This document shows, one piece after another, positions 3,063-55,770 of a DNA stretch of 64,000 bases. The notes beneath the pieces are model-generated. The model was not told the DNA's origin and searched no databases. It saw only the letters and a list, made by a program, of their open reading frames with translations. The stretch is from Vescimonas sp. GTDB taxonomy: Bacteria > Bacillota > Clostridia > Oscillospirales > Oscillospiraceae. The translations under genes were made by a program, and so were the position numbers. The stretch is taken from assembly GCA_045637545.1 (NCBI GenBank), contig JAZTZR010000037.1:435-64434 (forward strand), given 5' to 3'. The stretch's first letter is position 1. Each line of letters opens with the position of its first letter.

Positions 3063-3420
3063 GCGAGGTGTTCAGACAGTCGCGGCGGCAAAGGCGAAAG
3101 CCTGCCGATGAGGAAAGTCCGGGCTCCACAGGGCGAGGATAACGGGTAACGCCCGCCGAAGGCGACTTCAGGAAAAGTGCAACAGAGATATACCGCCTTG
3201 TTGTCGGCTTATGCCGTTGACGAGGTAAGGGTGGAAAGGTGAGGTAAGAGCTCACCCGATGGCTCGAGAGTGCCCATCGCTGTAAACTCTATCCGGAGCA
3301 ACACCGCTATGGGGACGCATGGTTGGCCCGACCGTCTCCGAGGTGGCTTGATCGCCGCGGCAACGCGGCGGCTAGATAGATGACTGTCAACGACAGAACC
3401 CGGCTTACAGAACAGCTCGC
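3063..3420 (+). ncRNA. rnpB: RNase P RNA (bacterial type A)
   Basis: GAGGAAAGTCCGGGCTCC, AGTGCAACAGA, GGTAAGAG, GTAAAC..GGAGCAA, AGATAGATGA, ACAGAACCCGGCTTA; P1 pairing gcgaggtgttc/gaacagctcgc. Confidence 0.97.
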
Positions 3421-3427
3421 AGATATG

Positions 3428-15899: not shown

Positions 15900-15917
15900 C
15901 TATCACGATATTGTACA

Positions 15918-16172
15918 AGCGATGAAGGGAAGCAGTAAGCAGCTTAAGCGGATGCCGAGAGAGGGAACGGTTGGTGTAAGTTCCCGTGAAGCCCTGCCCA
16001 AGTCGTCCCGGAGCTTTCGGCTGAACGAATTAGTAGGCTGCAACGGCTTGCCCACCGTTATCGGGGCGCGATGTAATAGCATCGGATGAGTGCGGGAAAT
16101 TTCCCGAATACAGGTGGTACCACGGACACAAGTTCGCCCTGTTTTGCTGCGGCAAAACAAGGCGATTTTTTG
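15918..16172 (+). promoter_or_regulatory. T-box riboswitch (Val, specifier GUC)
   Basis: GATGAAGGGAAGCAGTA stem I start, AGAGAG/GGTG loops, aaGTCgtcccggag specifier, AGGTGGTACCACGG T-box, terminator cgccctgttttgc/gcaaaacaaggcg + T-tract. Confidence 0.92.
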
Positions 16173-37057: not shown

Positions 37058-37073
37058 ATATACAATATATGAG

Positions 37074-37106
37074 AAAAGAGAAACGGCTTGGCCGTTTCTC
37101 TTTTTT
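37074..37106 (+). terminator. Intrinsic terminator
   Basis: aaaagagaaacggc-ttg-gccgtttctctttttt. Confidence 0.85.
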
Positions 37107-37135
37107 GCATATACGGGGACGAGCCATCATAGAGT
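37107..37135 (+). promoter_or_regulatory. Putative SigE promoter of the spoIIIA operon
   Basis: GCATAT-~16 bp-CATAGAGT; spoIIIA is SigE-dependent in Bacillus and Clostridium. Confidence 0.55.
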
Positions 37136-37164
37136 TGTGTATCAACAAAAGTGGGGGAGAGCAC

Positions 37165-38082
37165 ATGAAAGACCGGATCGCCCGATATGAACAGGCAGCG
37201 GCACTGCTGCCGCCTAAATGGCAGCGTTTGGCACTGCACCTGCCGGATCATCAAAAGGAGAGAGCAGAGGAACTGCGTCTGCGGGTAGGGCAGAGTATGA
37301 CGGTACTGCTGCCGGAGGGGGAGGTGTGGCCCTCTCAAGAACAGCTCCGTCCTGTGGTCATGCAGGCAGATTTAGAGCAGCTTTGTGACATTGTCAGCGG
37401 TTATTCCCGTTATGCCAGTTCTGAAACACTGGCACAGGGCTATCTCACCGCGCCCGGTGGTTTCCGTGTGGGTTTTTGCGGTACGGCGGTATTGCGGGAG
37501 GGCCAGCGGCGGAATCTGCGTGACTTCACCTCTGCCTGTATCCGTATCGGGCGGGAACAGCAAGGTCTGGCGCTTCCACTGCTTCCGCGGCTGATGGAGG
37601 GAGATCGGATTTGCAGCACATTGATTCTCTCACCGCCGGGATTGGGAAAAACCACACTGCTCCGGGATATGGTGCGGTGCTTTTCCGACGGAACAGAGAA
37701 AATCCTGCCATACCGTGTGGCGGTGGTGGATGAGCGAGGAGAAATTGCGGGCGTTTGTCGCGGTGCACCGCAGCTGGCGATTGGCTGCCATACGGATGTG
37801 TTGGATGGCTGTCCGAAAGCTGCGGGCATTCTGATGTTGCTGAGAGCACTAAATCCGCAGATCATTGCTGTAGATGAGATCACAGCACGAGAGGACATTA
37901 CCGCCATCGTCAGTGCTGCCCACTGCGGTGTGACGCTGTTATCTACGATTCATGCTGTATCGGTTGAGGAACTGAGAGAAAAGCCACTTTATAAACATTT
38001 GTTGCGCAGTTGCGTATTTTCTCGTGCTGTAGTGATTGGAAGAGAAGGCGCGAAGCGCACATACGAGGTGAAAAGACTGTGA
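37165..38082 (+). CDS. spoIIIAA: Stage III sporulation protein AA (ATPase)
   Basis: EELRLR, SPPGLGKTTLLRD, VDERGEIA, AVDEI. Confidence 0.93.
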   Translation: MKDRIARYEQAAALLPPKWQRLALHLPDHQKERAEELRLRVGQSMTVLLPEGEVWPSQEQLRPVVMQADLEQLCDIVSGYSRYASSETLAQGYLTAPGGFRVGFCGTAVLREGQRRNLRDFTSACIRIGREQQGLALPLLPRLMEGDRICSTLILSPPGLGKTTLLRDMVRCFSDGTEKILPYRVAVVDERGEIAGVCRGAPQLAIGCHTDVLDGCPKAAGILMLLRALNPQIIAVDEITAREDITAIVSAAHCGVTLLSTIHAVSVEELREKPLYKHLLRSCVFSRAVVIGREGAKRTYEVKRL

Positions 38083-38558
38083 CCTTGAAATTGATTGGCG
38101 CGGCCTGTGTAGCATTGGCCGCAGGCGGTACACTGCGCACCATCTTTATCCAGCGGCGGCGAGAGGAACGCTTGCTGCAGCACATGGCGTCGGCACTGGA
38201 TACTATGGCGCGGGAGATTCGATGGAAACATTCCCGTATTCCGGACATCCTTGCGTTGCTGGAAAGGGATGTGATTGTGGGAATATATTTTAAGAATATC
38301 AAGGCAAAGATGGACAGGAAAATCCCTTTACAGTTTGCTTGGAATACTGTGTTTTCTGCATTTCCTCTGGTAGAAGAAGTGCTGCTGAATATCGACTTGA
38401 ATGGTGATGAGACGCAGATGGAGAAATCCCTTGCACAAGGAGCTGTATCGCTGCGGCAACTGCTGGAAGAGCGAAAAAGACAGCGCCCTGAGCAGACGAA
38501 GCTGTGTACTGCGGCGGCGCTGTCCATAGCGGGCGGTTTGATTTTACTCTTATTATGA
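38079..38558 (+). CDS. spoIIIAB: Stage III sporulation protein AB
   Basis: GTG start overlapping the AA stop; LKLIGA N-terminus; C-terminal TM; position in operon. Confidence 0.8.
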   Translation: MTLKLIGAACVALAAGGTLRTIFIQRRREERLLQHMASALDTMAREIRWKHSRIPDILALLERDVIVGIYFKNIKAKMDRKIPLQFAWNTVFSAFPLVEEVLLNIDLNGDETQMEKSLAQGAVSLRQLLEERKRQRPEQTKLCTAAALSIAGGLILLLL

Positions 38559-38567
38559 GGAAAAGAC

Positions 38568-38762
38568 ATGGATGTAGATTTGATTTTCAAAATCGCCGCG
38601 ATCGGAATTTTGGTGGCGGTGCTGAATTTGATACTGGTGCGCTCGGGACGGGACGAGCAGGCACTGCTGACCACTTTGGCGGGGCTCGTGGTGGTGTTGG
38701 TAATGCTGCTGCAGGAGATCAGCGACCTGTTTGGCCTCATCAAGAGCCTGTTCTCCCTATGA
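38568..38762 (+). CDS. spoIIIAC: Stage III sporulation protein AC
   Basis: MDVDLIFKIAAIGILVAV...GRDEQA. Confidence 0.93.
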   Translation: MDVDLIFKIAAIGILVAVLNLILVRSGRDEQALLTTLAGLVVVLVMLLQEISDLFGLIKSLFSL

Positions 38763-39148
38763 CGGAAGCATTATGGAAAGCCGTGGCGCTGTGTCTGATC
38801 GGTGCTTTGTTGGCGGTGTTTTTAAAAAAGACGAACCCCGATGTGGCACTGGTGCTGGCGCTCTGTGTCTGTGTGGCAGTTCTGGCGGTCATCATCCGCG
38901 GGGTAGGGGAGATATGGTCATTTCTCACAGAGGTTCTGGAACGCGGTGGCCTCAGCATGGATTTGTTTACACCGCTGCTGAAGATGGTTGGGATTGCCCT
39001 CATTACCCGCACTGCGGGAGAACTATGCCGCGACGCAGGGCAGAGTGCGCTATCAGGAGTGGTGGAGACAGCAGGTGCCTTTGCTGCGATTTTGGTTTCG
39101 CTCCCTTTGTTTCGCGCTGCATGGACACTGTTGGAGGGATTGCTGTGA
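38759..39148 (+). CDS. spoIIIAD: Stage III sporulation protein AD
   Basis: LLKMVGIA...ELCRDAGQSA; ATGA overlap. Confidence 0.9.
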   Translation: MTEALWKAVALCLIGALLAVFLKKTNPDVALVLALCVCVAVLAVIIRGVGEIWSFLTEVLERGGLSMDLFTPLLKMVGIALITRTAGELCRDAGQSALSGVVETAGAFAAILVSLPLFRAAWTLLEGLL

Positions 39149-40236
39149 AATGGGTCATTACATTTGTTCTTTGCCTGTTTCTTGCATTTCTATGCCTTAC
39201 TGCGGCCTGGGGACAGATACCGGATGTGGTAGAGGACGCTCTTCCCGAGGCAGCGGAGGAACTGTTGGATGATTTGGGTGAACCATCACCCGACACAGGC
39301 ACGCTTCGGCGGGGATTGCGGCGAATGGGGGAAATGGCGTGGGAATTGCTGACACAGGATTTCCGATCCAGTCTCCGTGTGTCGATTCTGTTGTTGAGCG
39401 TTGTGCTGCTCCATGGGATGACAGAGGCGTTATTTGAGGCATCTTCGGGCGGGAAGATGGTTCATGCTGTGGGACTTGCCTTTGTGATCGTGGTGACCAT
39501 GACGACAGCCGGGGATATGCAGACGATGATTGGGACAGGCCTCCGCACCATGGAGGAATTGGATGTGCTGGCAAAAGCGCTGCTGCCCACATTGGCAGCG
39601 GCTGTCGCCGCAGGTGGAGCCATCGTTACCTCAGGGGTACAGCAGGTGGGGACGGTGTTTTTTGCCAACATTCTTCTGACACTGATCCGACAGATCCTGA
39701 TGCCGTTGGTGTACTGCTATATTGCCGCCGTGACGGCTAACGCTGTCTTGCCGCAGCAGGTGCTTAAGGGCTTGGCGCAGGCCGTGCGTAAGGGGATTAC
39801 ATGGCTTCTGACAGGGTTGCTGGTGATTTTTACGGGATATCTCTCTATCACAGGTACGGCGGCGACTTCGGCAGATAAGGTAACCCTACAGCTGACCCGC
39901 AGTGCCATCTCCACCGCTGTCCCCGTTGTCGGCGGCATTATATCCCGGGCAGCGGACAGCTTGCTGGCAGGAGCGGGACTGCTGAAAAATGCTCTTGGTG
40001 TGGTGGGTATGCTGGCGGTACTGGCCACCTGTTTGACGCCCTTTGTATCGATGGGAGTACAGTATCTCCTGTATAAGCTGACGGCCTTCTTGGCAGGGCT
40101 CTCCGGCGGGGGAAGGGTAGTGGAACTCATTGATGCCCTGGGCAGCGCCTTCGGCCTTGTGCTGGGCATGGTAGGTGCCTGTGCTGCACTGTTGCTCATA
40201 TCCATAACCTCTTCTGTATCGGTGGTGATCGCATGA
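39145..40236 (+). CDS. spoIIIAE: Stage III sporulation protein AE
   Basis: GTG start; AVPVVGG...LKNALG; polytopic membrane protein. Confidence 0.9.
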   Translation: MKWVITFVLCLFLAFLCLTAAWGQIPDVVEDALPEAAEELLDDLGEPSPDTGTLRRGLRRMGEMAWELLTQDFRSSLRVSILLLSVVLLHGMTEALFEASSGGKMVHAVGLAFVIVVTMTTAGDMQTMIGTGLRTMEELDVLAKALLPTLAAAVAAGGAIVTSGVQQVGTVFFANILLTLIRQILMPLVYCYIAAVTANAVLPQQVLKGLAQAVRKGITWLLTGLLVIFTGYLSITGTAATSADKVTLQLTRSAISTAVPVVGGIISRAADSLLAGAGLLKNALGVVGMLAVLATCLTPFVSMGVQYLLYKLTAFLAGLSGGGRVVELIDALGSAFGLVLGMVGACAALLLISITSSVSVVIA

Positions 40237-40712
40237 CCTTTTTCAGCAGTTGGCTTTTTGGTATTGTGGCGGCCTCTATAGCGTTGTCTCTTGTTTATGC
40301 CATGGTGCCCAAAGGGGCTATACTTTCCGCTGCCAAGTGTGCAGGGAGTCTGATATTGATTCTGGTGATGCTGCGACCGCTGCTTAATCTGCGGGCGGAG
40401 GAGTTTACCGTTTCCTATGAAAAATGGGAAGGGCAGCTTTCTGCACAGACAGAGGATTTAACAGAGGAAAACCTGCGGGAAATGGAAACGCTCATAGAGA
40501 GCGAAGTGCGTGCATATATATCGGAAAAAGGGGTGCAGCTTGGGTTGGCGGTACAGCCTGAGGTATACTGTGAGGTACGCGATGGTGTACCCTTTCCCGT
40601 GGAAGCACATCTCGACATCCCCTATCACGGGGCGTTATCCCGGTATATTTCAGAGGAGCTGGATATCGACCCGTCGAGACAGTATTGGCTGGAAACAGAG
40701 GAAGAAAAATGA
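40233..40712 (+). CDS. spoIIIAF: Stage III sporulation protein AF
   Basis: Two N-terminal TM helices; operon position. Confidence 0.75.
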   Translation: MTFFSSWLFGIVAASIALSLVYAMVPKGAILSAAKCAGSLILILVMLRPLLNLRAEEFTVSYEKWEGQLSAQTEDLTEENLREMETLIESEVRAYISEKGVQLGLAVQPEVYCEVRDGVPFPVEAHLDIPYHGALSRYISEELDIDPSRQYWLETEEEK

Positions 40713-41200
40713 AAAAAACTGCGATACAAGTGCTGAAAAAGTATAAGTTTGTGGTGCTGATTTTGCTGGTGGGGCTGGTGTTGATGCTGCTGCCAACCTC
40801 CGGAGGGAAAACAGAAGGTGGGAATGATGAACACAGCGAAGAATATTCACTATCCCGGACAGAGCAGCGCTTGGAGGCACTTTTGCGCAATATGCAGGGG
40901 GTGGGGCAAGTCAATGTAATGCTGACGCTGAAGAGCGGTTCCACACTGGAGCTGGCAAAGGACAGTTCCACCAGTGTGCGGGACAATGAAACAAGGCGGG
41001 AGAGTGATATCGTGACCGTGTCGCAGGGCAGCGGCAACGAAGAGGTGGTGGTGACACAGGAGCGGTACCCCATCTATCAAGGTGCCGTGGTGGTCTGCGA
41101 GGGTGGCGGCAACAGTGCCGTACGGCTGTCGGTCATTGAGGCAGTTTCCGTACTGACAGGTCTTGGAAGCGACAAAATAACGGTGGTGCAATGGAAATGA
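40709..41200 (+). CDS. spoIIIAG: Stage III sporulation protein AG
   Basis: GVGQVNVMLT, PIYQGAVVVCEGG, EAVSVLTGL. Confidence 0.9.
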   Translation: MKKTAIQVLKKYKFVVLILLVGLVLMLLPTSGGKTEGGNDEHSEEYSLSRTEQRLEALLRNMQGVGQVNVMLTLKSGSTLELAKDSSTSVRDNETRRESDIVTVSQGSGNEEVVVTQERYPIYQGAVVVCEGGGNSAVRLSVIEAVSVLTGLGSDKITVVQWK

Positions 41201-41214
41201 AGAAAGGGGAAACT

Positions 41215-41811
41215 ATGGCTTTGCAGGAGAAGAAGGAACACGCAAAACGGGAGAAAAAAGGTGTGAGTACGCTGCTGAAACGGCAGTGGAAGCGCAACGC
41301 GGTGGTGCTCGCTGTGCTGGTTTTGGTGGGTACATCCGTCTATCTCAACTGGCGTTATGCCGACAATGTGGCTGAGACAGGGAAAATCTTGGGTCAGGCA
41401 ACGCTGGTCAACGGTGAAGATGAAGCTGTTGCACAGACGGAAACGGCAGCAGGTGAGGAGAATAGTTACTTTGATACGGCGCGTCTCAGCCGTCAGCAGG
41501 CCCGTGACAGTGCCATCAGTATGCTGCAGGAGGCGGAGATGGATGAGAACGCCACAGAGGACGTACTGAATGAGGCCAGTCTCGCCCTGCAGGTGCTGGC
41601 ATCCTACACGGTTGCAGAGGCGCAGATCGAGAGCCTTGTCACTGCGAAGGGCTACGACGATTGCGTGGTATTCATGGGTGAGGATTCCTGCAGTGTGGTG
41701 GTGGCAGACCCCGATGGCATCGACAGCACCGATGCTGCCCGCATTAAGGATATCGTCATCTCTGAAAGCGATTATACGGCATCTCAGATCAAGATCATGG
41801 AGGCAGAGTAA
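41215..41811 (+). CDS. spoIIIAH: Stage III sporulation protein AH
   Basis: VYLNW, YFDTARLSRQQAR, IESLVTAKGY. Confidence 0.9.
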   Translation: MALQEKKEHAKREKKGVSTLLKRQWKRNAVVLAVLVLVGTSVYLNWRYADNVAETGKILGQATLVNGEDEAVAQTETAAGEENSYFDTARLSRQQARDSAISMLQEAEMDENATEDVLNEASLALQVLASYTVAEAQIESLVTAKGYDDCVVFMGEDSCSVVVADPDGIDSTDAARIKDIVISESDYTASQIKIMEAE

Positions 41812-43993: not shown

Positions 43994-44230
43994 ATGGCTG
44001 ATAAGAAAACCTTTGAAGAGAATATGCTCCGTCTTGAGGCAATCGTGGCCCAACTGGAGAAGGGAGAAGTGTCTCTTGACGATTCCTTAAAGTTATTTGA
44101 AGAGGGCACCCAGCTGATCGGAGAATGCCGCACGGCCTTGGATAAGGCTGAGCAGCAGGTGGTCAAGCTGATGAAGGGGCCCGACGGCGAGCCTATTGAG
44201 AGCAGCTTTGCAAGCGAGGAGACTGTATGA
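43994..44230 (+). CDS. xseB: Exodeoxyribonuclease VII small subunit
   Basis: FEENMLRLEAIVAQLEKGEVSLDDSLKLFEEG. Confidence 0.95.
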   Translation: MADKKTFEENMLRLEAIVAQLEKGEVSLDDSLKLFEEGTQLIGECRTALDKAEQQVVKLMKGPDGEPIESSFASEETV

Positions 44231-45096
44231 CCTATACCGAGCGTTACCGTGAATATCAGCAGGCCATTGAACAGTATCTGAATGGTCTGTTTATGAAGGA
44301 AGTGCCTTACGGAAAGCTTTACGAGGCCATCCGCTACAGTATCCTGGGAGGCGGCAAGCGTATCCGCCCTGTACTGACACTGGAGTTTGCCCGTCTTGGC
44401 GGTATTGACTGGCGTCTGGCGCTGCCCTTTGCCTGTGCTCTGGAATTGGTGCATAACTACAGCCTCATCCACGATGACCTGCCTTGCATGGATGATGACG
44501 ATCTTCGTCGCGGCAAGCCCACCACCCACAAGGTCTATGGTGAGACGCTGGCGGTGCTGGCAGGTGATGCATTGCAGCCGGAGGCTTTCCGCTTGATTCT
44601 CGATGCACCGGCCTTGTCCTCCGAGCGGAAGATGGACGGCTTGCGTGTGCTGCTGGATGCCTGCGGTGCAGATGGTATGGTGGCAGGTCAGGTGCTGGAC
44701 ACCCTCTGTCCTATTGAGACGGTAGAGCAGCTGCGCCACATGGAGAGCCTGAAAACCGGCTGTATGATCGCTGCCGCTGCCGAACTGGGCTGCGCCGCCT
44801 CCGGCATGAATGCCGGTATGCGAAAACTGGCAGTGCAGTATGCCAGTGATCTTGGTTTGGCATTCCAGATCCGCGACGATATGCTGGATGTAGAGGGTGA
44901 GGCCGAGGTGTTCGGAAAGCCCATCGGTTCAGATGTCCAAGAGGGTAAATTTACCTTTGTGGATGCCCTCGGTCTCGACGCCTGCCGCGCCGAGGTGGAG
45001 CGCTTGACAAAGGAAGCCAAGTCCGTGGTCTCGGTATGGCCTGACTGCTCTTTCTTGCTGGAACTGGCCGATCAGTTGGCCGGAAGAGTGCAATAA
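44227..45096 (+). CDS. ispA: Geranyltranstransferase / FPP synthase
   Basis: GGKRIRP, SLIHDDLPCMDDDDLRRG, FQIRDD. Confidence 0.95.
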   Translation: MTYTERYREYQQAIEQYLNGLFMKEVPYGKLYEAIRYSILGGGKRIRPVLTLEFARLGGIDWRLALPFACALELVHNYSLIHDDLPCMDDDDLRRGKPTTHKVYGETLAVLAGDALQPEAFRLILDAPALSSERKMDGLRVLLDACGADGMVAGQVLDTLCPIETVEQLRHMESLKTGCMIAAAAELGCAASGMNAGMRKLAVQYASDLGLAFQIRDDMLDVEGEAEVFGKPIGSDVQEGKFTFVDALGLDACRAEVERLTKEAKSVVSVWPDCSFLLELADQLAGRVQ

Positions 45097-45100
45097 TTCA

Positions 45101-45130
45101 AAAGATGTGCCCGCGGGCACATCTTTTTTT
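45101..45130 (+). terminator. ispA terminator
   Basis: aaagatgtgccc-gc-gggcacatcttttttt. Confidence 0.8.
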
Positions 45131-45168: not shown

Positions 45169-45197
45169 TTGTAAATTTCTTTCAAGTGTGATAATAT
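45169..45197 (+). promoter_or_regulatory. SigA promoter of the ole-oapA-dxs operon
   Basis: TTGTAA(45169-45174)-17 bp-TAATAT(45192-45197) with a TG extension; places the TSS near 45204, the first base of the RNA's closing helix. Confidence 0.65.
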
Positions 45198-45203
45198 ATG
45201 TAA

Positions 45204-45865
45204 TTACTGAACAGCGGCGCAGTATCCTAGTCAGATCTGCCGTCTCCTAAGAAGGGCCTAAAAATCCTTTAAAGGGCACAACTGTGAAACCTCTGGTGCT
45301 TGCTTCTTACGCCCAGTTTGGGGTGGGTGCTGGAGGGAGGTACGCATTATGCGTACCTGCGGCTGTAGGGCGCTCCCCAATGGCATGGGGAATCCGACCC
45401 TGCTTCCGTGGAGACCTGTTATTGTGCACAGGCGTACTCCCAATGTGGTCTAAGCGACCTGTGTACGAAACAGATGAATAAACCTGCAATGCGGTGCTAC
45501 CTGCCCCTTATGGGGCACGAACGCTGTGTGCAGAGTAGCCTGCCTTGCGTGGGTATGGTGGATAGGGGAGCTGATGCAATAAGTCCCCGGCCAGGGATGA
45601 TGTGCTATTCCCTTGAAACCATGTCTGCAAAAGAGGATAAGAGGCGGCGTGACTGCAGTGGAAATCACCTAGGCTGTCCATTTCGGATGGGGCCTTGGGG
45701 GGATTGCAGTGCGGACTAAGTGGCAGTCGGGTCCTGCGTGTGGTAACACCGCAGCATGACACCTAAGGGGAAACCACCTTTATCGGCGACGAGAGGTGTG
45801 TCGTGGGGAAAGCCAACCCGTACCTAAGCCGCAAGATTTACTCCCAATGTTGCCCTGTTCAGTAA
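45204..45865 (+). ncRNA. ole: OLE RNA (ornate, large, extremophilic), ~660 nt
   Basis: Terminal helix TTACTGAACAG(45204-45214)/CTGTTCAGTAA(45855-45865); conserved OLE segments recalled from known OLE RNAs: GCAGTATCCTAGTCAG, CTAAAAATCC..AAAGGGCACA, AAACCTGCAATG, GTAGCCTGCCTTG, GGATTGCAGTGCGGACTAAGTGGCA, GTGGGGAAAGCC, GCCGCAAGATTTACT; canonical ispA-ole-oapA-dxs context. Confidence 0.93.
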
Positions 45866-45902
45866 CTTTTTATAGTACAGGATGAAGTGAGGGAATTCTG
45901 TT

Positions 45903-46451
45903 TTGAGTAGCGACAAAGGCAAACCAAAGAAGAAAAAGGATTCATGGCCCATCAAGGTGTTCTTTCTGGCCATCGGTCTCAGTGCCGTTTTGAGCTTTTT
46001 TGCCTCCACGGCACTGGAGGGAACCGGTTATGTGGTAGCCATTACGGTTTTGCTTGTATTTATTGCGTTAGGCATCATCTTTGATATGATCGGTGTGGCG
46101 GTGACTGCCGCCGACCCCAGACCGTTCCATTCCATGGCGGCGCATAAGGAAAAGGGCGGCCGCGAGGCCATCCGTTTGCTCCAGAACGCAGAGAAGGTCA
46201 GTTCTATCTGCAACGATGTGGTGGGCGATATCTGCGGTATCGTCAGCGGTACCACGGCTGCAGTGATCGTAGCGGCGCTGCTGCGTGATTTTTCCACCAC
46301 TAATGTGCTGATCTCCATCGGTGTGACTGCGCTGATCTCCGGCTTTACCATCGGTGGTAAGGCACTGGGCAAGAAAGTGGCTATTAAGGACTGCACGGCT
46401 GTTGTGTACCGCGTGGCCCGTATCATGGCAGCACTCCATCTGTTCCGCTGA
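45903..46451 (+). CDS. oapA: OLE-associated membrane protein OapA (DUF21/CNNM-like)
   Basis: TTG start; about four TM helices; FDMIGVAVTAA..PFHSMA, ICNDVVGDICGIVSG, TIGGKALGK; immediately downstream of the OLE RNA. Confidence 0.9.
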   Translation: MSSDKGKPKKKKDSWPIKVFFLAIGLSAVLSFFASTALEGTGYVVAITVLLVFIALGIIFDMIGVAVTAADPRPFHSMAAHKEKGGREAIRLLQNAEKVSSICNDVVGDICGIVSGTTAAVIVAALLRDFSTTNVLISIGVTALISGFTIGGKALGKKVAIKDCTAVVYRVARIMAALHLFR

Positions 46452-46467: not shown

Positions 46468-48318
46468 GTGTATTTAGAGAGAATTCACAGCCCTGAAGAT
46501 GTAAAAAAGTTAACAACTTTGGAAGCCCGCCGTCTCTGCGAAGAACTGCGCGCCGATTTGGTGCGCTCTGTTGCGCAAACCGGCGGGCATTTGGCATCCA
46601 ATCTGGGTGTTGTGGAGCTGAGCGTGGCCATCCATCGCGTGTTTGACACCGCGTATGACCGCCTTATCTTCGATGTGGGTCATCAGTGCTATGTCCACAA
46701 GATGCTGACCGGGCGCCGCGAGGAGATGGGGACACTGCGGAAGTTCCGTGGTATTTCCGGATTCCCCAAGCCCTATGAGAGTGTCCACGATGCCTTCGTG
46801 GCCGGTCATGCCTCCGCCGCCGTTTCGGTGGCACTGGGTATGGCCCGTGCACGCACGCTACGCAAGGAGAACTATCATGTGCTGGCATTGGTGGGCGATG
46901 CCTCTCTTGCCGGAGGTCTGGCATTTGAGGGCATGAACGATGCCGGTGGCTCCGGTGAGCCGATGATCGTAATTTTGAACGATAACGGTATGTCCATCAG
47001 TGAGAATGTGGGCGCGATGAGCGGCCATCTCTCCCGTCTGCGTACCCGCCCGGGCTATTATGAGTTTAAAAAGCGCTATCGTCAGGCGATGGAAACCAAT
47101 ATTGTAGGTGAAAAGCTGTATGCGTTGAGCCACGATTTGAAAACAGCATTGAAAAAGTCGTTGCTGCCTAACAGCTCTATGTTTGAAGATATGGGTTTTA
47201 TGTACATGGGCCCTGTTAACGGACACGATGTGGATGCGTTGACAGATGCGCTGCGCTGGGCCAAGGAGCAGAAGAGCCCTGTACTGCTCCATGTGCATAC
47301 AAAGAAAGGAAAGGGATATCTTCCCGCTGAGGCAAATCCCGAAAAATTCCATGGTATCGGTGCATTTGATGTCTTTACGGGAAAAACCAAGGCTGCATCC
47401 AAGGAGAGTTTCTCTGATGTGTTCGGTCAGACTATGTTGGAGCTGGCAGAGGGGGACGAGAGAGTCTGCGCCGTAACGGCGGCTATGATCGATGGAACCG
47501 GCCTTACCAAATTTGCCGAAGCCTTTCCCAAGCGTCTGTTCGATGTGGGTATTGCCGAGGGGCATGCCGTTTCCATGACGGGCGGTATGGCCAAGCAGGG
47601 GTTGCTGCCGGTATTGGCGGTGTATTCCAGTTTTCTCCAGCGCGGTTATGATATGCTGCAGCAGGATGTATCTCTGGATAGGCTTCATGTTGTGCTGGGC
47701 GTTGACCGCGCAGGTCTTGTAGGTGCCGACGGAGAGACCCATCACGGCTGCTTTGATGTGATGTATTTGAGCCAGACACCGCACATGACGGTGTTGTGTC
47801 CTGCCAGCTTTGCAGAGCTTCGTGCTATGCTGCGCCGGGCAGTATTCCATACAGAAGGCCCTGTTGCGGTGCGCTATCCCCGCGGCGGCGAAGGTGCTTA
47901 TACCGCCTGCTGCGGTGAAGAGGACTTTACAACGCTTCGTGAGGGCGCAGATGCAAGTATTGTCACCTATGGTGTGTTGGTCAATCAGGCGCTGGAGGCA
48001 GCTCAGATCCTTACAGAGCGCGGCATTTCTGCCCGTGTGGTAAAGATCAACCGCATTGCTCCCTTGGAGAGCCATTCGGTATGCAAGGCTTTGGGCGGGG
48101 AGGCACCTATGTTGGTGTTGGAGGACTGTCTCGGTGTTGGATGTGTTGGTCAGCGCATTTCTGCCATTCTTGCACAGGGTGGCTGCTGTCCCCGCAAAAT
48201 GATTTTGAAGAATCTTGGTGTCCATGTTGCGCCTCACGGCAGCGTTGAGCAGCTCTATGAGGAACTGGAACTGGATGCCTTGAGTGTCGCTTATGCGTTG
48301 GAGGAGGCACTGAAATGA
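46468..48318 (+). CDS. dxs: 1-deoxy-D-xylulose-5-phosphate synthase
   Basis: GGHLASNLG, DVGHQCY, GDAS..ILNDN, DVGIAEGHA, DRAGLVGADGETH. Confidence 0.96.
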   Translation: MYLERIHSPEDVKKLTTLEARRLCEELRADLVRSVAQTGGHLASNLGVVELSVAIHRVFDTAYDRLIFDVGHQCYVHKMLTGRREEMGTLRKFRGISGFPKPYESVHDAFVAGHASAAVSVALGMARARTLRKENYHVLALVGDASLAGGLAFEGMNDAGGSGEPMIVILNDNGMSISENVGAMSGHLSRLRTRPGYYEFKKRYRQAMETNIVGEKLYALSHDLKTALKKSLLPNSSMFEDMGFMYMGPVNGHDVDALTDALRWAKEQKSPVLLHVHTKKGKGYLPAEANPEKFHGIGAFDVFTGKTKAASKESFSDVFGQTMLELAEGDERVCAVTAAMIDGTGLTKFAEAFPKRLFDVGIAEGHAVSMTGGMAKQGLLPVLAVYSSFLQRGYDMLQQDVSLDRLHVVLGVDRAGLVGADGETHHGCFDVMYLSQTPHMTVLCPASFAELRAMLRRAVFHTEGPVAVRYPRGGEGAYTACCGEEDFTTLREGADASIVTYGVLVNQALEAAQILTERGISARVVKINRIAPLESHSVCKALGGEAPMLVLEDCLGVGCVGQRISAILAQGGCCPRKMILKNLGVHVAPHGSVEQLYEELELDALSVAYALEEALK

Positions 48319-49130
48319 GTAAGAAAATTCGTTTGGATGTGCTTCTTGTGGAGCGCGGATTTCAAGAGAGCCGTCAGAAGGCACAGGCGGTCATTATGGC
48401 CGGCAGCGTGTTTGTGGCAGGTCAGCGGGTGGACAAACCCGGTACTGCTGTGGCGGAGGATGCCGAGATTGAAGTGCGCGGTGGAGGCCTGCGCTATGTA
48501 AGCCGCGGCGGCTTAAAGCTGGAGAAGGCTATGCAGACCTGGCCCATTACCCTTGTGGGTAAGACATGTGCCGACATTGGTGCCTCCACCGGCGGATTTA
48601 CTGATTGCATGCTGCAAAATGGTGCCGAGAAGGTCTATGCTGTGGATGTGGGTTACGGTCAGCTGGACTGGAAGCTGCGTAACGATCCTCGTGTGGTGTG
48701 TCTTGAGCGTACCAACGCACGGTATCTGAGTCATGAAGAAGTGTCCGATGAGTTGGATTTTGCCTCCATTGATGTCTCCTTCATTTCACTGAAGCTGATT
48801 TTCCCGGCACTGTATCAGCTGCTGCGCGAAGGCGGTGAGATCGCCTGTCTTATCAAACCGCAGTTTGAAGCAGGCCGCGAGAAGGTGGGGAAGAAGGGCG
48901 TTGTCCGCGACCCTGCCGTTCATCTGGAAGTGTTGGAAAACTTCTTGGGACATGCAAAGGAAAATAACTTTACAGTACTGGGTATTACATATTCTCCTAT
49001 CCGTGGACCTGAAGGAAATATTGAGTACTTAGGCTATCTTCGCAAATCAGAAGAGGTTGATGTGGCAGTTGATTTGGCCGCTGTCGTCAGCGCCTCCCAC
49101 GATACACTGAAAGAGGGTGCAAGCGTATGA
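48315..49130 (+). CDS. tlyA: TlyA-family rRNA methyltransferase (S4 + FtsJ)
   Basis: RLDVLL, YVSRGGLKL, DIGASTGGFTD, DVSFISL, KPQFEAG. Confidence 0.93.
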   Translation: MSKKIRLDVLLVERGFQESRQKAQAVIMAGSVFVAGQRVDKPGTAVAEDAEIEVRGGGLRYVSRGGLKLEKAMQTWPITLVGKTCADIGASTGGFTDCMLQNGAEKVYAVDVGYGQLDWKLRNDPRVVCLERTNARYLSHEEVSDELDFASIDVSFISLKLIFPALYQLLREGGEIACLIKPQFEAGREKVGKKGVVRDPAVHLEVLENFLGHAKENNFTVLGITYSPIRGPEGNIEYLGYLRKSEEVDVAVDLAAVVSASHDTLKEGASV

Positions 49131-49999
49131 AAAAGGTGATCCTCTGTCCGAATCCCTACCGCGACAGCGGTTTGAAGGTGGCAAAAGCTTCCCGCGAAAT
49201 TCTCGAGTCTATTGGATTTGAAACAGTGGTGTGTTTGCCCTTCCATCACGAGACTTCCGGCGAAGAACTGGATGTTCCTGTGTTGCCCTTGCAGCAGGAG
49301 ATCCGAAACGCGGATCTTTTGATTGCCTTTGGCGGTGACGGTACGATTTTGCATCTGTCCCGCACAGCGGCGTTGCACCATGTTCCGGTGTTGGGTATCA
49401 ATCTGGGTAGTCTCGGATTCATGTCGGAACTGGAGGCCAACGAACTGGAGCGTCTGCGTGATCTGAAGGATTGGAATTTTACGGTGGAATCCCGCATGAT
49501 GCTGGATGTGACCATCTTCCGTGATGACAAGGCGGTATTCAGCAATATTGCACTCAATGATGCCGTTGTTTCCAAGGGCGCGGTGGCCCGTGTGGTGCGA
49601 CTTGATATCTCCACAGAAGAGGGTCGTTTGACTAAGGTGACAGGCGACGGTGTTGTGATTGCCACCCCCACAGGTTCTACCGGCTATTCCATGGCTGCCG
49701 GCGGTCCCATTGTGGAGCCTACCGCCCGCAATTTGCTGATTACACCCATCTGCGCCCACTCGACCCGTAACAGCTGTTATGTGCTCTCTCCCGAGCATGT
49801 GATTACGGTAGAGACTTCGGACGCCAACCGCAAATTCGTCTATCTCTCCGCCGATGGCGGCAAAGCATTCTCCTTGAAAAATGGCGACCGCATCCGCGTG
49901 CGCCAGTCGAAATTTGACATGGGTCTCGTGCGCTTGAGTAAGAAGAGCTTCTGTGAGATCCTGGACTACAAAATGGGGGCTGTGGAAGATGAAAAATGA
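49127..49999 (+). CDS. nadK: NAD(+) kinase
   Basis: GGDGTIL, GINLGSLGF, ALND, TPTGSTGYSMAAGGP. Confidence 0.95.
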   Translation: MKKVILCPNPYRDSGLKVAKASREILESIGFETVVCLPFHHETSGEELDVPVLPLQQEIRNADLLIAFGGDGTILHLSRTAALHHVPVLGINLGSLGFMSELEANELERLRDLKDWNFTVESRMMLDVTIFRDDKAVFSNIALNDAVVSKGAVARVVRLDISTEEGRLTKVTGDGVVIATPTGSTGYSMAAGGPIVEPTARNLLITPICAHSTRNSCYVLSPEHVITVETSDANRKFVYLSADGGKAFSLKNGDRIRVRQSKFDMGLVRLSKKSFCEILDYKMGAVEDEK

Positions 50000-50441
50000 T
50001 CGTCAGGAAAAGCTGTTGCAGATCATCAGCGAAGAGAATATTGAAACCCAGGAGCAGTTGCTGCAGCGCCTTGAGGCCCGTGGTATCCGTTCTACGCAGG
50101 CTACCATTTCCCGTGATATCAAGCAGCTCCATTTGATCAAGGAACCCACGGGATTTGGCACCTATCGTTACGCCGTGTCTACCCACCGTACACGCCTGAA
50201 TTTTGCCGAGAAGCTGCGCAACATCTTCCGTGAATGCGTGCTGAGCGTGGATTACGCCCAGAATTTGGTGGTTGTGAAGACGATGGCCGGTCTGGCAGGT
50301 GCGGCTGCCTCTGCATTGGACGGCATGGAAAATGACGAAATCGTCGGCTCTATTGCAGGCGACGATACGGTGCTGGTGGTATTGCGCGATACCGAGAGTG
50401 CCGCAGACTTCTGTGTGCAGATGCGGGAGCAGCTGCTGTAA
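49989..50441 (+). CDS. argR: Arginine repressor
   Basis: TQEQL, TQATISRDI, GSIAGDDT. Confidence 0.95.
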   Translation: MKNDRQEKLLQIISEENIETQEQLLQRLEARGIRSTQATISRDIKQLHLIKEPTGFGTYRYAVSTHRTRLNFAEKLRNIFRECVLSVDYAQNLVVVKTMAGLAGAAASALDGMENDEIVGSIAGDDTVLVVLRDTESAADFCVQMREQLL

Positions 50442-50468
50442 ATCTAACGAAGAGGGGAGGGGCTTCCC

Positions 50469-52157
50469 GTGCTGGAAATTCTGCATATTGAGAATATTGC
50501 CATCATCGAGCGTGCAGAGATCGCCTTTGCCCGCGGCTTTAATGCGCTGACAGGTGAGACCGGTGCCGGTAAATCCATCGTTATTGACTCTATGAGCGCC
50601 GTGCTGGGCCAGCGCACCTCCCGTGATTTGATCCGTACCGGTGCTGACAAGGCATTTGTCAGCGCATGGTTTTCCCATGTTCCCTTGTCTATCTGCGAGG
50701 ATTTGGGTGTTACGCCCGATGAGGATGGAAATCTGATGCTGCAGCGCGAGATCCACGCTGACGGCAAGAATGTCTGTCGCGTGGGTGGTCGACCCGTCAC
50801 CGTGTCACAGCTCCGTCAACTGGGTAGCCGCTTGGTGAATATCCACGGTCAGCACGATGGACAACAACTGTTGGATGAGGAGCAGCATCTGACTTTTTTG
50901 GATAGCTATGGAAAGCTGGAAGAAGTCCATTCTTCCTATGCTGAAAAGTATTCTTCCTTAACAGAAATCCGCCGAAAAATGACGGCGTTGCAGATGGACG
51001 AGGCGGAGAAAGCGCGCCGCATGGACACGCTGCAATATCAGATTGCAGAGCTGGAGCGGGCCAAGCTGCAGGAGGGGGAAGAGGAGTCGTTGACTTCTCG
51101 CCGCAACCTGCTGCGCAACGGTGAGAAATTCATCTCCGCCGTCTCCGGCTGTGACCATTTCCTCAGCGGTGGCGATGACAGCGACGGTGTACTGACGCTG
51201 TTGAAGCGTGCGCAGGAGTCCCTTGGCAGTGTGCGGAATCTGGACGAGAGCTTTTCTGGTCTCTACGAGCGGTTGCAGGAGGTCTACAGCGAGATCTACG
51301 ACATTGCCGATACTGTCAGCGATCAGCGGGCCAACTTCGACTTCTCCCCAAATGAGCTGGACGAAGTGGAGAGTCGTCTCGATCTTCTTTATCGACTGAA
51401 GAAGAAATACGGCCCCACGGTGGAGGAGATGTTGGCATACCTCGATAAGTGCCGCGCAGAACTGGATAACATCTGCTATGCCGGTGACACACTTGAGCGG
51501 TTGAAGAAGGACGAGCAGAAGGCAGAGAAGGCTGCCATGGCTGCAGCGCAGGAACTGTCAGCTCAGCGCAAGAAGGCTGCTGCCGACTTGGAAGTGTTGG
51601 TGCTGGATGAGCTGCGGCAGTTGGATATGGCCAATATTCGCTTCTGCGTGGAATTTACCCAGCAGACCCCTGATGCCACCGGTATCGACAGCGTTCGTTT
51701 CCTTATGTCTGCCAATGTGGGTGAGGAGTTGAAGCCCATCAATAAGATCGCCTCCGGTGGTGAATTGGCCCGTATCATGCTGGCGCTGAAGAATGTCCTC
51801 AGCGAGCAGGACATGGTAGGAACGCTCGTTTTTGACGAGGTGGACACCGGCGTCAGCGGCCGCGCGGCACAGAAGGTGGCCGAGAAAATGGCCCGCATCG
51901 CCGGCAGTAAGCAGGTGCTGTGTGTGACCCATTTGCCGCAGCTGGCCGCAATGGCCGATACCCATTTCTCTGTTGAGAAGGGCGAGCGTGACGGACGCAC
52001 CTACACCAATGTGGAGGAATTGGGGCGCGCTCGCCGCAGAGAAGAGTTGGCTCGACTGACCGGCGGCGCCCTTGTATCCGATACCATGCTGCAGAGTGCC
52101 GAGGAGCTTCTCGCACAGGCAGAGACATTCAAAAAAAAACTGTCCGTCCAGTCTTGA
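50469..52157 (+). CDS. recN: DNA repair protein RecN
   Basis: TGETGAGKS, IHGQH, ASGGELAR, FDEVDTGVSG, VTHLPQ. Confidence 0.96.
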   Translation: MLEILHIENIAIIERAEIAFARGFNALTGETGAGKSIVIDSMSAVLGQRTSRDLIRTGADKAFVSAWFSHVPLSICEDLGVTPDEDGNLMLQREIHADGKNVCRVGGRPVTVSQLRQLGSRLVNIHGQHDGQQLLDEEQHLTFLDSYGKLEEVHSSYAEKYSSLTEIRRKMTALQMDEAEKARRMDTLQYQIAELERAKLQEGEEESLTSRRNLLRNGEKFISAVSGCDHFLSGGDDSDGVLTLLKRAQESLGSVRNLDESFSGLYERLQEVYSEIYDIADTVSDQRANFDFSPNELDEVESRLDLLYRLKKKYGPTVEEMLAYLDKCRAELDNICYAGDTLERLKKDEQKAEKAAMAAAQELSAQRKKAAADLEVLVLDELRQLDMANIRFCVEFTQQTPDATGIDSVRFLMSANVGEELKPINKIASGGELARIMLALKNVLSEQDMVGTLVFDEVDTGVSGRAAQKVAEKMARIAGSKQVLCVTHLPQLAAMADTHFSVEKGERDGRTYTNVEELGRARRREELARLTGGALVSDTMLQSAEELLAQAETFKKKLSVQS

Positions 52158-53814: not shown

Positions 53815-55380
53815 TTATTCAAAGTGTACTTCGATGATAATGCGTACATCTTCGTCATCATCCATCGTGGAAGAAACGAGACCGGGATTTTTCGCCAGAT
53901 CGCCGTCAAAGAGAAGGGTCGTATTCTCACCGAAGGCAATATTCATCAGCATAACGGAATCACCTTTTTCGACCGTAGTGGCTTCACGATCCTGCAACCA
54001 TGAACAGGTATAGTCCTCAGCGATATCAGGAAAGCGTTCCTTTAAAGATAGAATAAGCCAACCAGCCTCCTTTGTCCCAAAAGTATATTCAGAGGCGAAC
54101 AGCAGGAAGTTTGGCTTGTAGTCATAATGGAAATCAAAACGAAATTTCCCCTTTTCTCTATCCTCCCAGTACGGTTCAAGACGAAGCGAGAGGAGACGGT
54201 CGGCATCTATCAGTCTGTCGGCGTCTATGACAAATTCCCCATTGTGATAGTAGCTGTAGCGGATATACACATCGGTAATATCTTCATGTAAATGGAATCG
54301 CCATGCGGGGGAGCGGCCGCCCGCGGTGGAGTTGCGTACATAGCTCTCGCCCAGAGGGACAGCACCCGTAAAGGCAAACACCGCGGCGAAGATGGCGATG
54401 ACGGCCACCAAGAACACGGCGGCGGCCCTGGTTTGGGGCTTTTTGGCGATCAGCACGATGCGCTCTTTCAATGTGCGCTTACCGCCCGTCATGGTGGTGG
54501 CGGTGAGAATGAGGTCGTTTGCGCGGGCGTTACGGCAGCTGAGGGCGATGAGGGTACGCCCGTAGTCGGTGCGCTGCTCCTCACCCAAGGATTCGATGGC
54601 GGCTTCGTCGCAGGCAAGCTCGGCATCGCGGCGGGAGAGGGCCGCTGCCCACCACACCAAGGGATTATACCAGTGGAGTGCCAGTGCTGCGGCACGGAAG
54701 ATACCCCAAATGTGGTCGCGGTGGCGATAGTGACTCAATTCATGGCTCAGCACATGTCGCAGGGCGGTTTCATCCGCTGCCACGGCGGGGGTCACATAGA
54801 TGGCGGGAGCGATAAGCCCGTGGAGACAGGGAGTCTCCGTCACCTCGGAGATATACACGGGGCGGGGACAGTCTACCTCCAACCTCTGCCGTGTGCGGCG
54901 GAGGCGGCGGGAAAAGATGGCGTTCACGACAATGAACCACGCCGCCACAATCCCGATACCCACCAACCACAAGGGCAGGAGGATATTTTCGGCGAAATTC
55001 TTCACGTTACTGGAACGCTGCCAGCGGGCGAACTCCTCTGCATCGGCGTTTTCGGCGATTTGGGTGTAGGCATCGGTGGCAGGTGTGCCGTCAAGGTGGA
55101 AAAAGCCCTTCACATAGCCGATGATCTCGCCATCGCTCATATGCTCCACCCTTGTGACCTTCTCCAGCCGCTCCAAATCCTGGGACAGCTGTGTGCTCTC
55201 TACAAAGGAGGCGGCGGAGTAGGGGACGTGCATCACCGAGACGGGTACAAGCAGCCGCACCAGCACCAAGCCCCACAGGAGATAGCCCACCACGGGGCTC
55301 ATTCTGCCACGCAGGGCAAAGCGCAGGATGATGACCGCCACAATGAGGAGGGAAGAGGAAATGATCCAGTTCAGCATCAT
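53815..55380 (-). CDS. M56-family (BlaR1/MecR1-like) membrane metallopeptidase sensor
   Basis: YLLWGLVLVRL, HELSH zinc motif, HWYNPLVW, ELACDE, LKERI; the C-terminal domain is not recognisably penicillin-binding. Confidence 0.9.
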   Translation of the reverse strand: MMLNWIISSSLLIVAVIILRFALRGRMSPVVGYLLWGLVLVRLLVPVSVMHVPYSAASFVESTQLSQDLERLEKVTRVEHMSDGEIIGYVKGFFHLDGTPATDAYTQIAENADAEEFARWQRSSNVKNFAENILLPLWLVGIGIVAAWFIVVNAIFSRRLRRTRQRLEVDCPRPVYISEVTETPCLHGLIAPAIYVTPAVAADETALRHVLSHELSHYRHRDHIWGIFRAAALALHWYNPLVWWAAALSRRDAELACDEAAIESLGEEQRTDYGRTLIALSCRNARANDLILTATTMTGGKRTLKERIVLIAKKPQTRAAAVFLVAVIAIFAAVFAFTGAVPLGESYVRNSTAGGRSPAWRFHLHEDITDVYIRYSYYHNGEFVIDADRLIDADRLLSLRLEPYWEDREKGKFRFDFHYDYKPNFLLFASEYTFGTKEAGWLILSLKERFPDIAEDYTCSWLQDREATTVEKGDSVMLMNIAFGENTTLLFDGDLAKNPGLVSSTMDDDEDVRIIIEVHFE

Positions 55381-55392
55381 AGCGACCCCTCC

Positions 55393-55770
55393 TTACTGCC
55401 GCTCCTCGGCGCGGCGCAGGATTGCGTACAGCTCTTCGATTTCCTTTTGTGTGAGATTTTGCTTTTCCGTCATGGCACTCACCAAGTTGCTGACGCTGCC
55501 GTGATAGACGCGACTGAGGAAATCCTCCGTCTCCCGTTGGGCGGCTTGCGCCCGCGATACAAGAGGGGCGTAAGCTTTCACACCGTCCTCGCCGTCATGG
55601 CAAGCGATGACACCTTTTTCCGTCATGCGCCGCAGCATGGTGAGGGTGGTGCTGCGACTCCACATGGCGTGGGCGTGGAGATAGTCCACCGCCTCGCGGC
55701 CTGTAACGCTGCCCTTTTCCCACAGACATTCCATCAGCTTCCACTCCGTGGGGGTAAAACTGTGTTCCAT
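55393..55770 (-). CDS. BlaI/MecI/CopY-family repressor
   Basis: EWKLMECLW, WSRSTTLTMLRRMTEKG, FLSRVYHGS; GGAGG RBS. Confidence 0.92.
   Translation of the reverse strand: MEHSFTPTEWKLMECLWEKGSVTGREAVDYLHAHAMWSRSTTLTMLRRMTEKGVIACHDGEDGVKAYAPLVSRAQAAQRETEDFLSRVYHGSVSNLVSAMTEKQNLTQKEIEELYAILRRAEERQ

What the first reader, a model, noticed from the sequence alone, without database searches (positions are those of the whole stretch)
45204..46451. OLE RNA-OapA ribonucleoprotein locus hidden in the 800-bp 'gap' between ispA and dxs
Seen: only short spurious ORFs here, but an 11-bp perfect helix joins the two ends (45204-45214 with 45855-45865). A SigA promoter starts transcription at that helix. Many internal hairpins are present, several with GNRA-type loops (GTG-GTAA-CAC, GG-GAAA-CC, TCG-GCGA-CGA). 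A ~4-TM gene with the NDVVGDICG motif follows 37 nt downstream. Established: OLE RNAs are ~600-nt structured RNAs of anaerobic and extremophilic Firmicutes. They bind the membrane protein OapA, sit in the ispA/dxs/tlyA/nadK/argR/recN operon, and are linked to alcohol, cold and Mg2+ stress, but their biochemical function is unresolved. Inference: this is an intact, divergent OLE system in a mesophilic Oscillospiraceae-like organism, co-transcribed with isoprenoid and DNA-repair genes. The class is known, so novelty lies in this variant and host.
Basis: partly seen in the sequence, partly recalled or inferred. Interest (0 to 1): 0.88.

Follow-up and report, generated by a model that had tools for sequence, protein, structure and literature searches.

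The report
OLE RNA with an extra hairpin
The gap holds a full-length copy of OLE RNA, a known large bacterial RNA, followed by the gene for its membrane partner OapA; the only unusual feature is an extra hairpin, shared by a group of gut bacteria, that likely alters the site where the helper protein OapC binds.

Summary
Window 45198-45872 matches Rfam OLE end to end (425 bits). The next gene is oapA: invariant DxxxD, predicted CorB/CNNM-like fold. The host is not new: OLE is in 25 of 36 congeners and 42 of 150 family genomes, and this scan has reported OLE-oapA loci on other DNA many times. A terminator follows ispA, so OLE has its own conserved promoter.

One feature I did not find described in the paper texts I read is a covarying 21-nt hairpin (45338-45358) in junction J5/6, part of the OapC-induced k-turn 1a. 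It is in 45 of 74 parsed OLEs from 18 genera. It goes with loss of the canonical k-turn strand (27 of 29 without the hairpin, 0 of 45 with). oapC is kept in 19 of 19 canonical family genomes but only 7 of 18 informative hairpin genomes outside this genus. That is probably few events, and this genome and its genus keep oapC. Verdict: known system, modest lineage variant useful for the k-turn 1a/1b question.

The parts
44227..45096 (+). ispA, farnesyl diphosphate synthase (upstream neighbour)
   Evidence: NF045485 above cut-off
45100..45127 (+). terminator-like stem after ispA, followed by a T run
   Evidence: 12 pairs
45169..45197 (+). predicted SigA-type promoter: -35 TTGTAA, 17 nt, extended -10 TG-n-TAATAT; start near 45204 inferred
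   Evidence: conserved in 25 of 25 parsed genus loci; below the scanner threshold
45204..45865 (+). OLE RNA, full-length type, about 662 nt, closed by the 11-bp terminal helix 45204-45214/45855-45865 (Rfam envelope 45198-45872)
45258..45266 (+). A-rich loop L4 (dimer bridge B1 in the cryo-EM structures)
   Evidence: role from PMC12286853
45280..45289 (+). J4a/5, k-turn bulged strand in the altered form AAC-UGU-GAA (canonical AUC-GAU-GAA)
45309..45317 (+). loop L5 (kisses L6 in the dimer)
   Evidence: PMC12265935
45338..45358 (+). extra 9-bp hairpin inserted in J5/6, lineage-specific
   Evidence: insert against the Rfam model; -12.6 kcal/mol, 8 of 9 pairs at probability 0.9 or more; covariation
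45378..45387 (+). loop L6
45408..45415 (+). J6/7 (GGAGA strand of k-turn 1b), intact
   Evidence: 45 of 45 loci with the altered J4a/5
45589..45592 (+). palindromic GGCC loop of P9 (dimer bridge B3)
   Evidence: PMC12286853
45734..45754 (+). P13 with single bulged U and GNRA loop, the OapB site
   Evidence: requirements from PMC7936274
45783..45792 (+). P14.1 GCGA tetraloop hairpin
45903..46451 (+). oapA, 182-aa four-helix membrane protein with D105-x-x-x-D109
46468..48318 (+). dxs
   Evidence: TIGR00204 above cut-off
48315..52157 (+). tlyA, nadK, argR, recN, overlapping or closely packed

Best explanation
The locus is a full-length OLE RNA gene followed by oapA; the RNA likely works as in the studied species, as a dimer bound to OapA at the membrane in stress and Mg2+ handling, and its extra J5/6 hairpin likely blocks the k-turn 1a conformer and weakens OapC binding. 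Shown here: identity of the RNA and the protein, the promoter and terminator sequences, the hairpin and its covariation, and its coupling with a changed J4a/5. Taken from the literature by homology: dimer contacts, OapA and OapB binding, the membrane location and the stress role. Inferred: the hairpin pairs the purines that would form the non-bulged strand of k-turn 1a, the base of P6 is left free to stay paired, and the three G-A pairs between J4a/5 and J6/7 (k-turn 1b, seen by cryo-EM) remain. The junction then becomes a fixed four-way junction that depends less on OapC.
For: Rfam 425 bits over the whole model. OapA model: best match is CorB 7M1U, Z 13.3, rmsd 2.6 over 129 residues, the entry reported for H. 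halodurans OapA (PMC11332333); D105 and D109 invariant in 69 sequences. Hairpin in 45 of 74 parsed loci; base pairs 1-4 paired in 39 of 39 distinct hairpins with G-C/A-U and C-G/U-A/A-U swaps. Canonical AUC-GAU-GAA in 27 of 29 loci without and 0 of 45 with the hairpin; the U84-equivalent is kept in 28 of 29 against 6 of 45. U84A nearly abolishes OapC binding at 1 uM in H. halodurans, and J5/6 was required for binding (PMC9723947). Selecting GTDB records on the altered J4a/5 alone gave the hairpin in 113 of 118 parsed loci. ybxF/oapC is in 19 of 19 family genomes with canonical OLE and in 7 of 21 hairpin genomes outside this genus (7 of 18 after removing three assembly gaps). RNA contigs at 96% or more identity cover the OLE body, the hairpin included.
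Against: This genome keeps ybxF with its RNA-contacting glycine, and so do 20 of 21 informative OLE-positive congeners. ybxF is also patchy without OLE: 39 of 69 OLE-negative family genomes. Ten of the losses fall in one clade (SH-aLRT 99) and there is only one supported independent pair, so co-evolution is not shown. The OapA tree places two hairpin carriers among canonical ones. Six hairpin carriers keep U84. The U84 mapping is inferred from the paper's numbering and the Rfam consensus, not from an alignment to the H. halodurans sequence. No binding, structure or phenotype was measured.
Confidence: 0.55

Rival explanations
1. The hairpin is a tolerated expansion segment at an outward-facing junction. 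OapC still binds through k-turn 1b, and the J4a/5 changes and oapC losses are shared ancestry, not cause and effect.
For: ybxF kept in this genome and 20 of 21 informative congeners. GAA of J4a/5, the adjacent C and GGAGA of J6/7 are intact. Hairpin length varies from 14 to 33 nt, with inserts of about 110 and 190 nt in two genomes. One or two origins only. P7 and P8 also carry extra sequence here.
Against: The bulge and C-helix, nearly invariant in canonical OLEs, change in all 45 hairpin carriers. ybxF was never missing in the 19 canonical family genomes.
Confidence: 0.3
2. The switch is re-wired, not lost: k-turn 1a still forms, but by opening the base of the new hairpin instead of the base of P6.
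For: The 5' base of the hairpin keeps an A followed by purines in all 39 distinct hairpins, like the ancestral AAG. Opening the three basal pairs costs about 7 kcal/mol by nearest-neighbour energies.
Against: The two bases that pair with the end of the bulged strand in canonical OLEs are missing. Some carriers have AAA at the base and no G to pair with C85. The -2 pair would be a mismatch in most carriers.
Confidence: 0.13
3. The region is not a real OLE gene but a decayed copy or chance structure.
For: None; short spurious ORFs overlap it.
Confidence: 0.01

Closest known systems
Full-length OLE RNA (Rfam RF01071) with OapA, OapB, OapC and bS21, as studied in Halalkalibacterium halodurans
   Same: Whole-model match; ispA-ole-oapA-dxs-tlyA-nadK-argR-recN cluster; P13 bulge plus GNRA loop; GCGA loop of P14.1; OapA DxxxD; ybxF and rpsU in the genome, oapB in 4 of 4 near-complete congeners.
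   Different: About 662 nt. Extra hairpin in J5/6; J4a/5 reads AAC-UGU-GAA; longer P7 and P8 tips; own promoter behind an ispA terminator, whereas the H. halodurans cluster is reported as one polycistronic RNA (PMC12265935).
OLE dimers of Clostridium acetobutylicum (PDB 9MCW) and C. botulinum (9LCR)
   Same: L4 A-run, L5, L6 and the palindromic GGCC of L9 are present; both strands of k-turn 1b G-A pairs are present.
   Different: An added helix at the P5/P6 junction and a weaker k-turn C-helix; dimer formation untested here.
OLE variants 1 (TANB77) and 2 (RF39) of Fernando and Breaker 2024
   Same: Lineage-specific forms in gut Bacillota; partner genes partly lost in those clades.
   Different: Those are shortened (P7-P9 reduced, P13 site often lost). 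This form is lengthened and keeps P7, P8 and the OapB site.
CNNM/CorB/CorC (MpfA) Mg2+ transporter membrane domain
   Same: Predicted OapA fold matches 7M1U and 7CFG best; weak Pfam CNNM hit.
   Different: OapA has four helices, DxxxD and no CBS domains; transport untested.

Membership tests
OLE RNA (RF01071), full-length | Covariance-model match over the whole model | tested here: met
   425 bits, positions 1-616
OLE RNA (RF01071), full-length | P7, P8, P9 and the P13 OapB site (single bulge plus GNRA loop) present | tested here: met
   criteria from PMC11332333 and PMC7936274
OLE RNA (RF01071), full-length | Dimer-contact loops L4, L5/L6, L9 palindrome | tested here: met
   sequences present; dimer itself not tested
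OLE RNA (RF01071), full-length | [quoted passage not shown] | tested here: not met
   J5/6 carries a hairpin and J4a/5 is altered; this marks the variant, not loss of family membership
OLE RNA (RF01071), full-length | k-turn 1b (J4a/5 with J6/7) | tested here: inconclusive
   G-A strands and the C-G pair kept, the next pair is a mismatch
OLE RNA (RF01071), full-length | Abundant discrete transcript | tested here: inconclusive
   RNA contigs of close relatives cover the RNA body; contigs give no ends, strand or level
OLE RNA (RF01071), full-length | Membrane location and stress phenotypes | not testable with these tools
   needs experiments
OapA | Gene directly downstream of ole, four membrane helices, DxxxD | tested here: met
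   OapA-like ORF at 70 of 72 OLE loci examined
OapA | CNNM/CorB-like fold without CBS domains | tested here: met
OapA | Direct alignment to H. halodurans OapA | not tested
   no OapA family in NCBIfam and no solved OapA found by sequence
OLE RNP partners | oapB in the genome | tested here: inconclusive
   not found in G000, which also lacks neighbouring infA (72% complete); present in 4 of 4 near-complete congeners and matching PDB 7K9B
OLE RNP partners | oapC (ybxF) and rpsU in the genome | tested here: met
   ybxF between rpoC and rpsL on C45; rpsU-like ORF on C7, by motif only

The most novel reading that the evidence does not exclude
A clade of gut Oscillospiraceae has replaced a protein with RNA: the new J5/6 helix holds the P5/P6 junction in the shape that OapC otherwise stabilises. 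This gives an OapC-independent OLE particle without the k-turn 1a switch, which allowed several lineages to lose oapC. If so, k-turn 1a switching is dispensable for OLE function.
Probability: 0.22. Interest if true: 0.55.

Novelty: new variant of a known kind. Interest (0 to 1): 0.3.

Why it matters
The locus itself adds nothing: OLE-oapA is catalogued in thousands of genomes. The variant matters modestly. The field holds three mutually exclusive folds for the J4a/5-J6/7 region: biochemistry favours k-turn 1a, cryo-EM shows 1b (PMC12054373, PMC12286853). A widespread natural form in which J5/6 is occupied by a helix while both 1b strands stay intact is a ready-made test of which fold, and which partner, OLE really needs. 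Named isolates carry it (a Neopoerus faecalis strain and a Dysosmobacter sp.).

Tried and rejected
The promoter scanner missed the OLE promoter; conservation settled it. Pfam KOW did not detect OapB; it was found through the map-infA interval. PDB sequence searches with OapA, alone and as a profile, found nothing significant. Foldseek had no match at E 0.001 or better, although its top six rows were CNNM/CorB/CorC chains. Alignment A2 held one mis-cut row and misaligned the variable hairpin, so it was not used for counts. The careful OapA tree did not finish; the FastTree version is weakly resolved. The independent-pairs test of hairpin against oapC loss had one supported pair and no power. 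Depth in RNA contigs is far higher over OLE than over its flanks, but it sums all OLE-bearing organisms and the runs were picked with this stretch, so I do not use it as an expression level. The lack of cover over the promoter and most of oapA is likewise not evidence. One relative's contig runs from the 3' half of OLE into oapA, which shows no single transcript. Only oapA matched CNNM in this genome, so no MpfA was found, but the assembly is 72% complete. The paper search pairing OLE with gut taxa listed only microbiome papers with no OLE mention. The term search in PMC10898510 found nothing. Rejected: host novelty, divergence of the core, co-transcription with ispA.

Full report
Observation. 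The gap between ispA (44227-45096) and the next ORF (45903) holds an OLE RNA. Rfam RF01071 matches 45198-45872 over all 616 model positions at 425 bits, E 1.8e-121. The 11-bp helix joining 45204-45214 to 45855-45865 is exact and well supported in the folding ensemble. The strand folds at z = -4.1 against 20 shuffles. The cluster is xseA-xseB-ispA-ole-oapA-dxs-tlyA-nadK-argR-recN.

Transcription signals. A 12-pair terminator-like stem with a T run follows ispA at 45100-45127. Upstream of the RNA lie TTGTAA, 17 nt, and TG-n-TAATAT. The scanner did not list this site, but the same arrangement is in 25 of 25 parsed genus loci (26 given, own included). OLE therefore likely starts at its own promoter near 45204 and is not read through from ispA. 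oapA to recN are packed within 30 nt of each other or overlap, so read-through downstream is plausible but not shown. Animal-gut metatranscriptome contigs at 96% or more identity cover the RNA body, with listed pieces from 45214 to 45833, including pieces across the new hairpin with one or two differences. Contigs give no strand, ends or level, and these are relatives.

The protein. ORF 45903-46451 has four hydrophobic stretches and NDVVGDICG at 104-112. D105 and D109 are invariant in 69 aligned homologues; DxxxD is described as distinctive of OapA (PMC11332333), and D100A/D104A is the PM1 mutant (PMC9723947). Pfam CNNM hits below its cut-off. The AlphaFold model (pLDDT 84.6) matches CorB 7M1U best (Z 13.3, rmsd 2.6, 129 residues) and CorC 7CFG next; 7M1U is the match published for H. 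halodurans OapA. An OapA-like ORF was found at 70 of 72 OLE loci.

Partners. ybxF (oapC) lies between rpoC and rpsL on contig C45 and matches YbxF structures. An rpsU-like ORF is on C7. oapB was not found in this 72%-complete assembly, which also lacks infA. It sits between map and infA in the congener examined, matches PDB 7K9B, and is present in 4 of 4 near-complete congeners. The RNA keeps the OapB site (P13 bulge and GNRA loop) and the dimer loops L4, L5, L6 and the GGCC of L9.

Distribution. OLE was found in 25 of 36 congeners, 11 of 24 genomes of other families in the order and 42 of 150 family genomes. A GTDB-wide survey already reported 2,822 Bacillota genomes with OLE, gut lineages included (PMC11332333). 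A mesophilic gut host is therefore not new. Earlier notes of this scan report many ordinary OLE-oapA loci.

The variant. Against the Rfam model this copy has three inserts. Two lengthen P7 and P8, stems known to vary. The third is a 9-bp hairpin at 45338-45358 in junction J5/6 (-12.6 kcal/mol). Of 78 OLE loci given, 74 parsed: 45 have it (26 of 26 in the genus, own included, and 19 loci in 17 other genera of the family), and 29 do not (19 family loci, 10 from other families). Of the four unparsed, read by eye, three have an insert (two of about 110 and 190 nt, one the second OLE copy of a genome from another family) and one does not. In 39 distinct hairpins base pairs 1-4 are all paired, with compensatory swaps. 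Watson-Crick cells number 145 of 156 against 107 +/- 3.4 in 2,000 shuffles; the register was chosen by best stem and the sequences are kin, so this overstates significance.

Coupled change. The k-turn strand J4a/5 reads AUC-GAU-GAA in 27 of 29 loci without the hairpin and in none of 45 with it; the U84-equivalent is kept in 28 of 29 against 6 of 45. This set overlaps the earlier one. [quoted passage not shown] Cryo-EM instead shows J4a/5 paired with J6/7 (k-turn 1b; PMC12286853 and PMC12412911), and all three folds are held to be relevant (PMC12054373). My mapping of U84 is inferred from that numbering and the Rfam consensus.

Mechanism. By homology the RNA would dimerise through L4, L5/L6 and L9, bind OapA at P2/P4a and OapB at P13, and act at the membrane in stress and Mg2+ handling; its biochemical activity remains unresolved in the papers read. 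In this lineage the J5/6 purines needed for k-turn 1a are paired inside the new hairpin, while GAA of J4a/5 and GGAGA of J6/7 are intact in 45 of 45 loci with the altered J4a/5. The likeliest result is a fixed four-way junction with 1b-like G-A pairs and a weaker OapC site.

Evidence on oapC, for and against. A YbxF profile found the gene in 19 of 19 family genomes with canonical OLE and in 7 of 21 hairpin genomes outside this genus. Three of those 14 absences are uninformative assembly gaps, giving 7 of 18; four of them show rpoC directly before rpsL, as does one congener. Against: this genome has ybxF, as do 20 of 25 OLE-positive congeners, and four of the five absences are assembly gaps. 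ybxF is in only 39 of 69 OLE-negative family genomes outside the genus (69 of 108 searched; one weak hit not counted). On a tree of the OLE 3' part (65 of 72 rows) the hairpin needs two changes, one origin not excluded. Ten ybxF-less genomes form one clade, and only one independent pair is supported. The OapA tree disagrees for two carriers. Release from OapC is thus suggested, not shown.

Literature seen. PMC11332333: parts 1-3 of 7, section 9, passages and supplement text. PMC12265935: parts 1-3 of 5. PMC9723947: parts 2-3 of 7 and passages. PMC12054373, PMC12286853, PMC7936274, PMC12412911, PMC12990946: passages. PMC10898510: search listing and a term search without hits. Searches. None of this text mentions a J5/6 hairpin. 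But figures are not held and the Stockholm alignments of PMC12054373 could not be read, so an optional hairpin may already be drawn there; subscription papers were not searchable.

Verdict. Observation confirmed, identity certain, system known. The lineage variant is real and testable but modest: interest 0.3.

Noticed in passing
window 3064-3423 (+): Bacterial RNase P RNA, class A, 260 bits.
   Followed up: no
window 15913-16144 (+): T-box leader, 113.7 bits.
   Followed up: no
window 37069-41811 (+): Run of ORFs that look like the spoIIIAA-AH sporulation operon (recalled resemblance, not searched), upstream of the Asp23-family gene, nusB and xseAB.
   Followed up: no
window 53815-55770 (-): A 125-aa ORF and a 521-aa membrane ORF resembling a BlaI/BlaR1-type repressor-sensor pair (recalled resemblance, not searched).
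   Followed up: no
G000 contig C22 (1,678 bases): A second rpoC-end, small ferredoxin-like ORF, ybxF and rpsL, different from the copy on C45; probably a contaminating contig.
   Followed up: partly
L092 (G170) and L090 (G178), J5/6: Very long inserts (about 190 and 110 nt) at the same junction; both genomes lack a ybxF match.
   Followed up: partly
L007 and L099 (G055): One genome of another family has two OLE genes, one canonical and one with the hairpin; contamination or transfer not resolved.
   Followed up: partly
L021, L028, L029, between P7 and P8: A second small extra hairpin in 3 of 20 aligned genus OLEs.
   Followed up: no
L153, L157, L183, L201, L209: Five OLEs with altered J4a/5 but no hairpin; some are labelled as Bacilli that I recall as RF39-type, a clade reported to lack OapC.
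   Followed up: no
OLE is patchy within the genus and family, missing from several genomes that are 96-98% complete; repeated loss in gut Oscillospiraceae could be profiled against MpfA.
   Followed up: no
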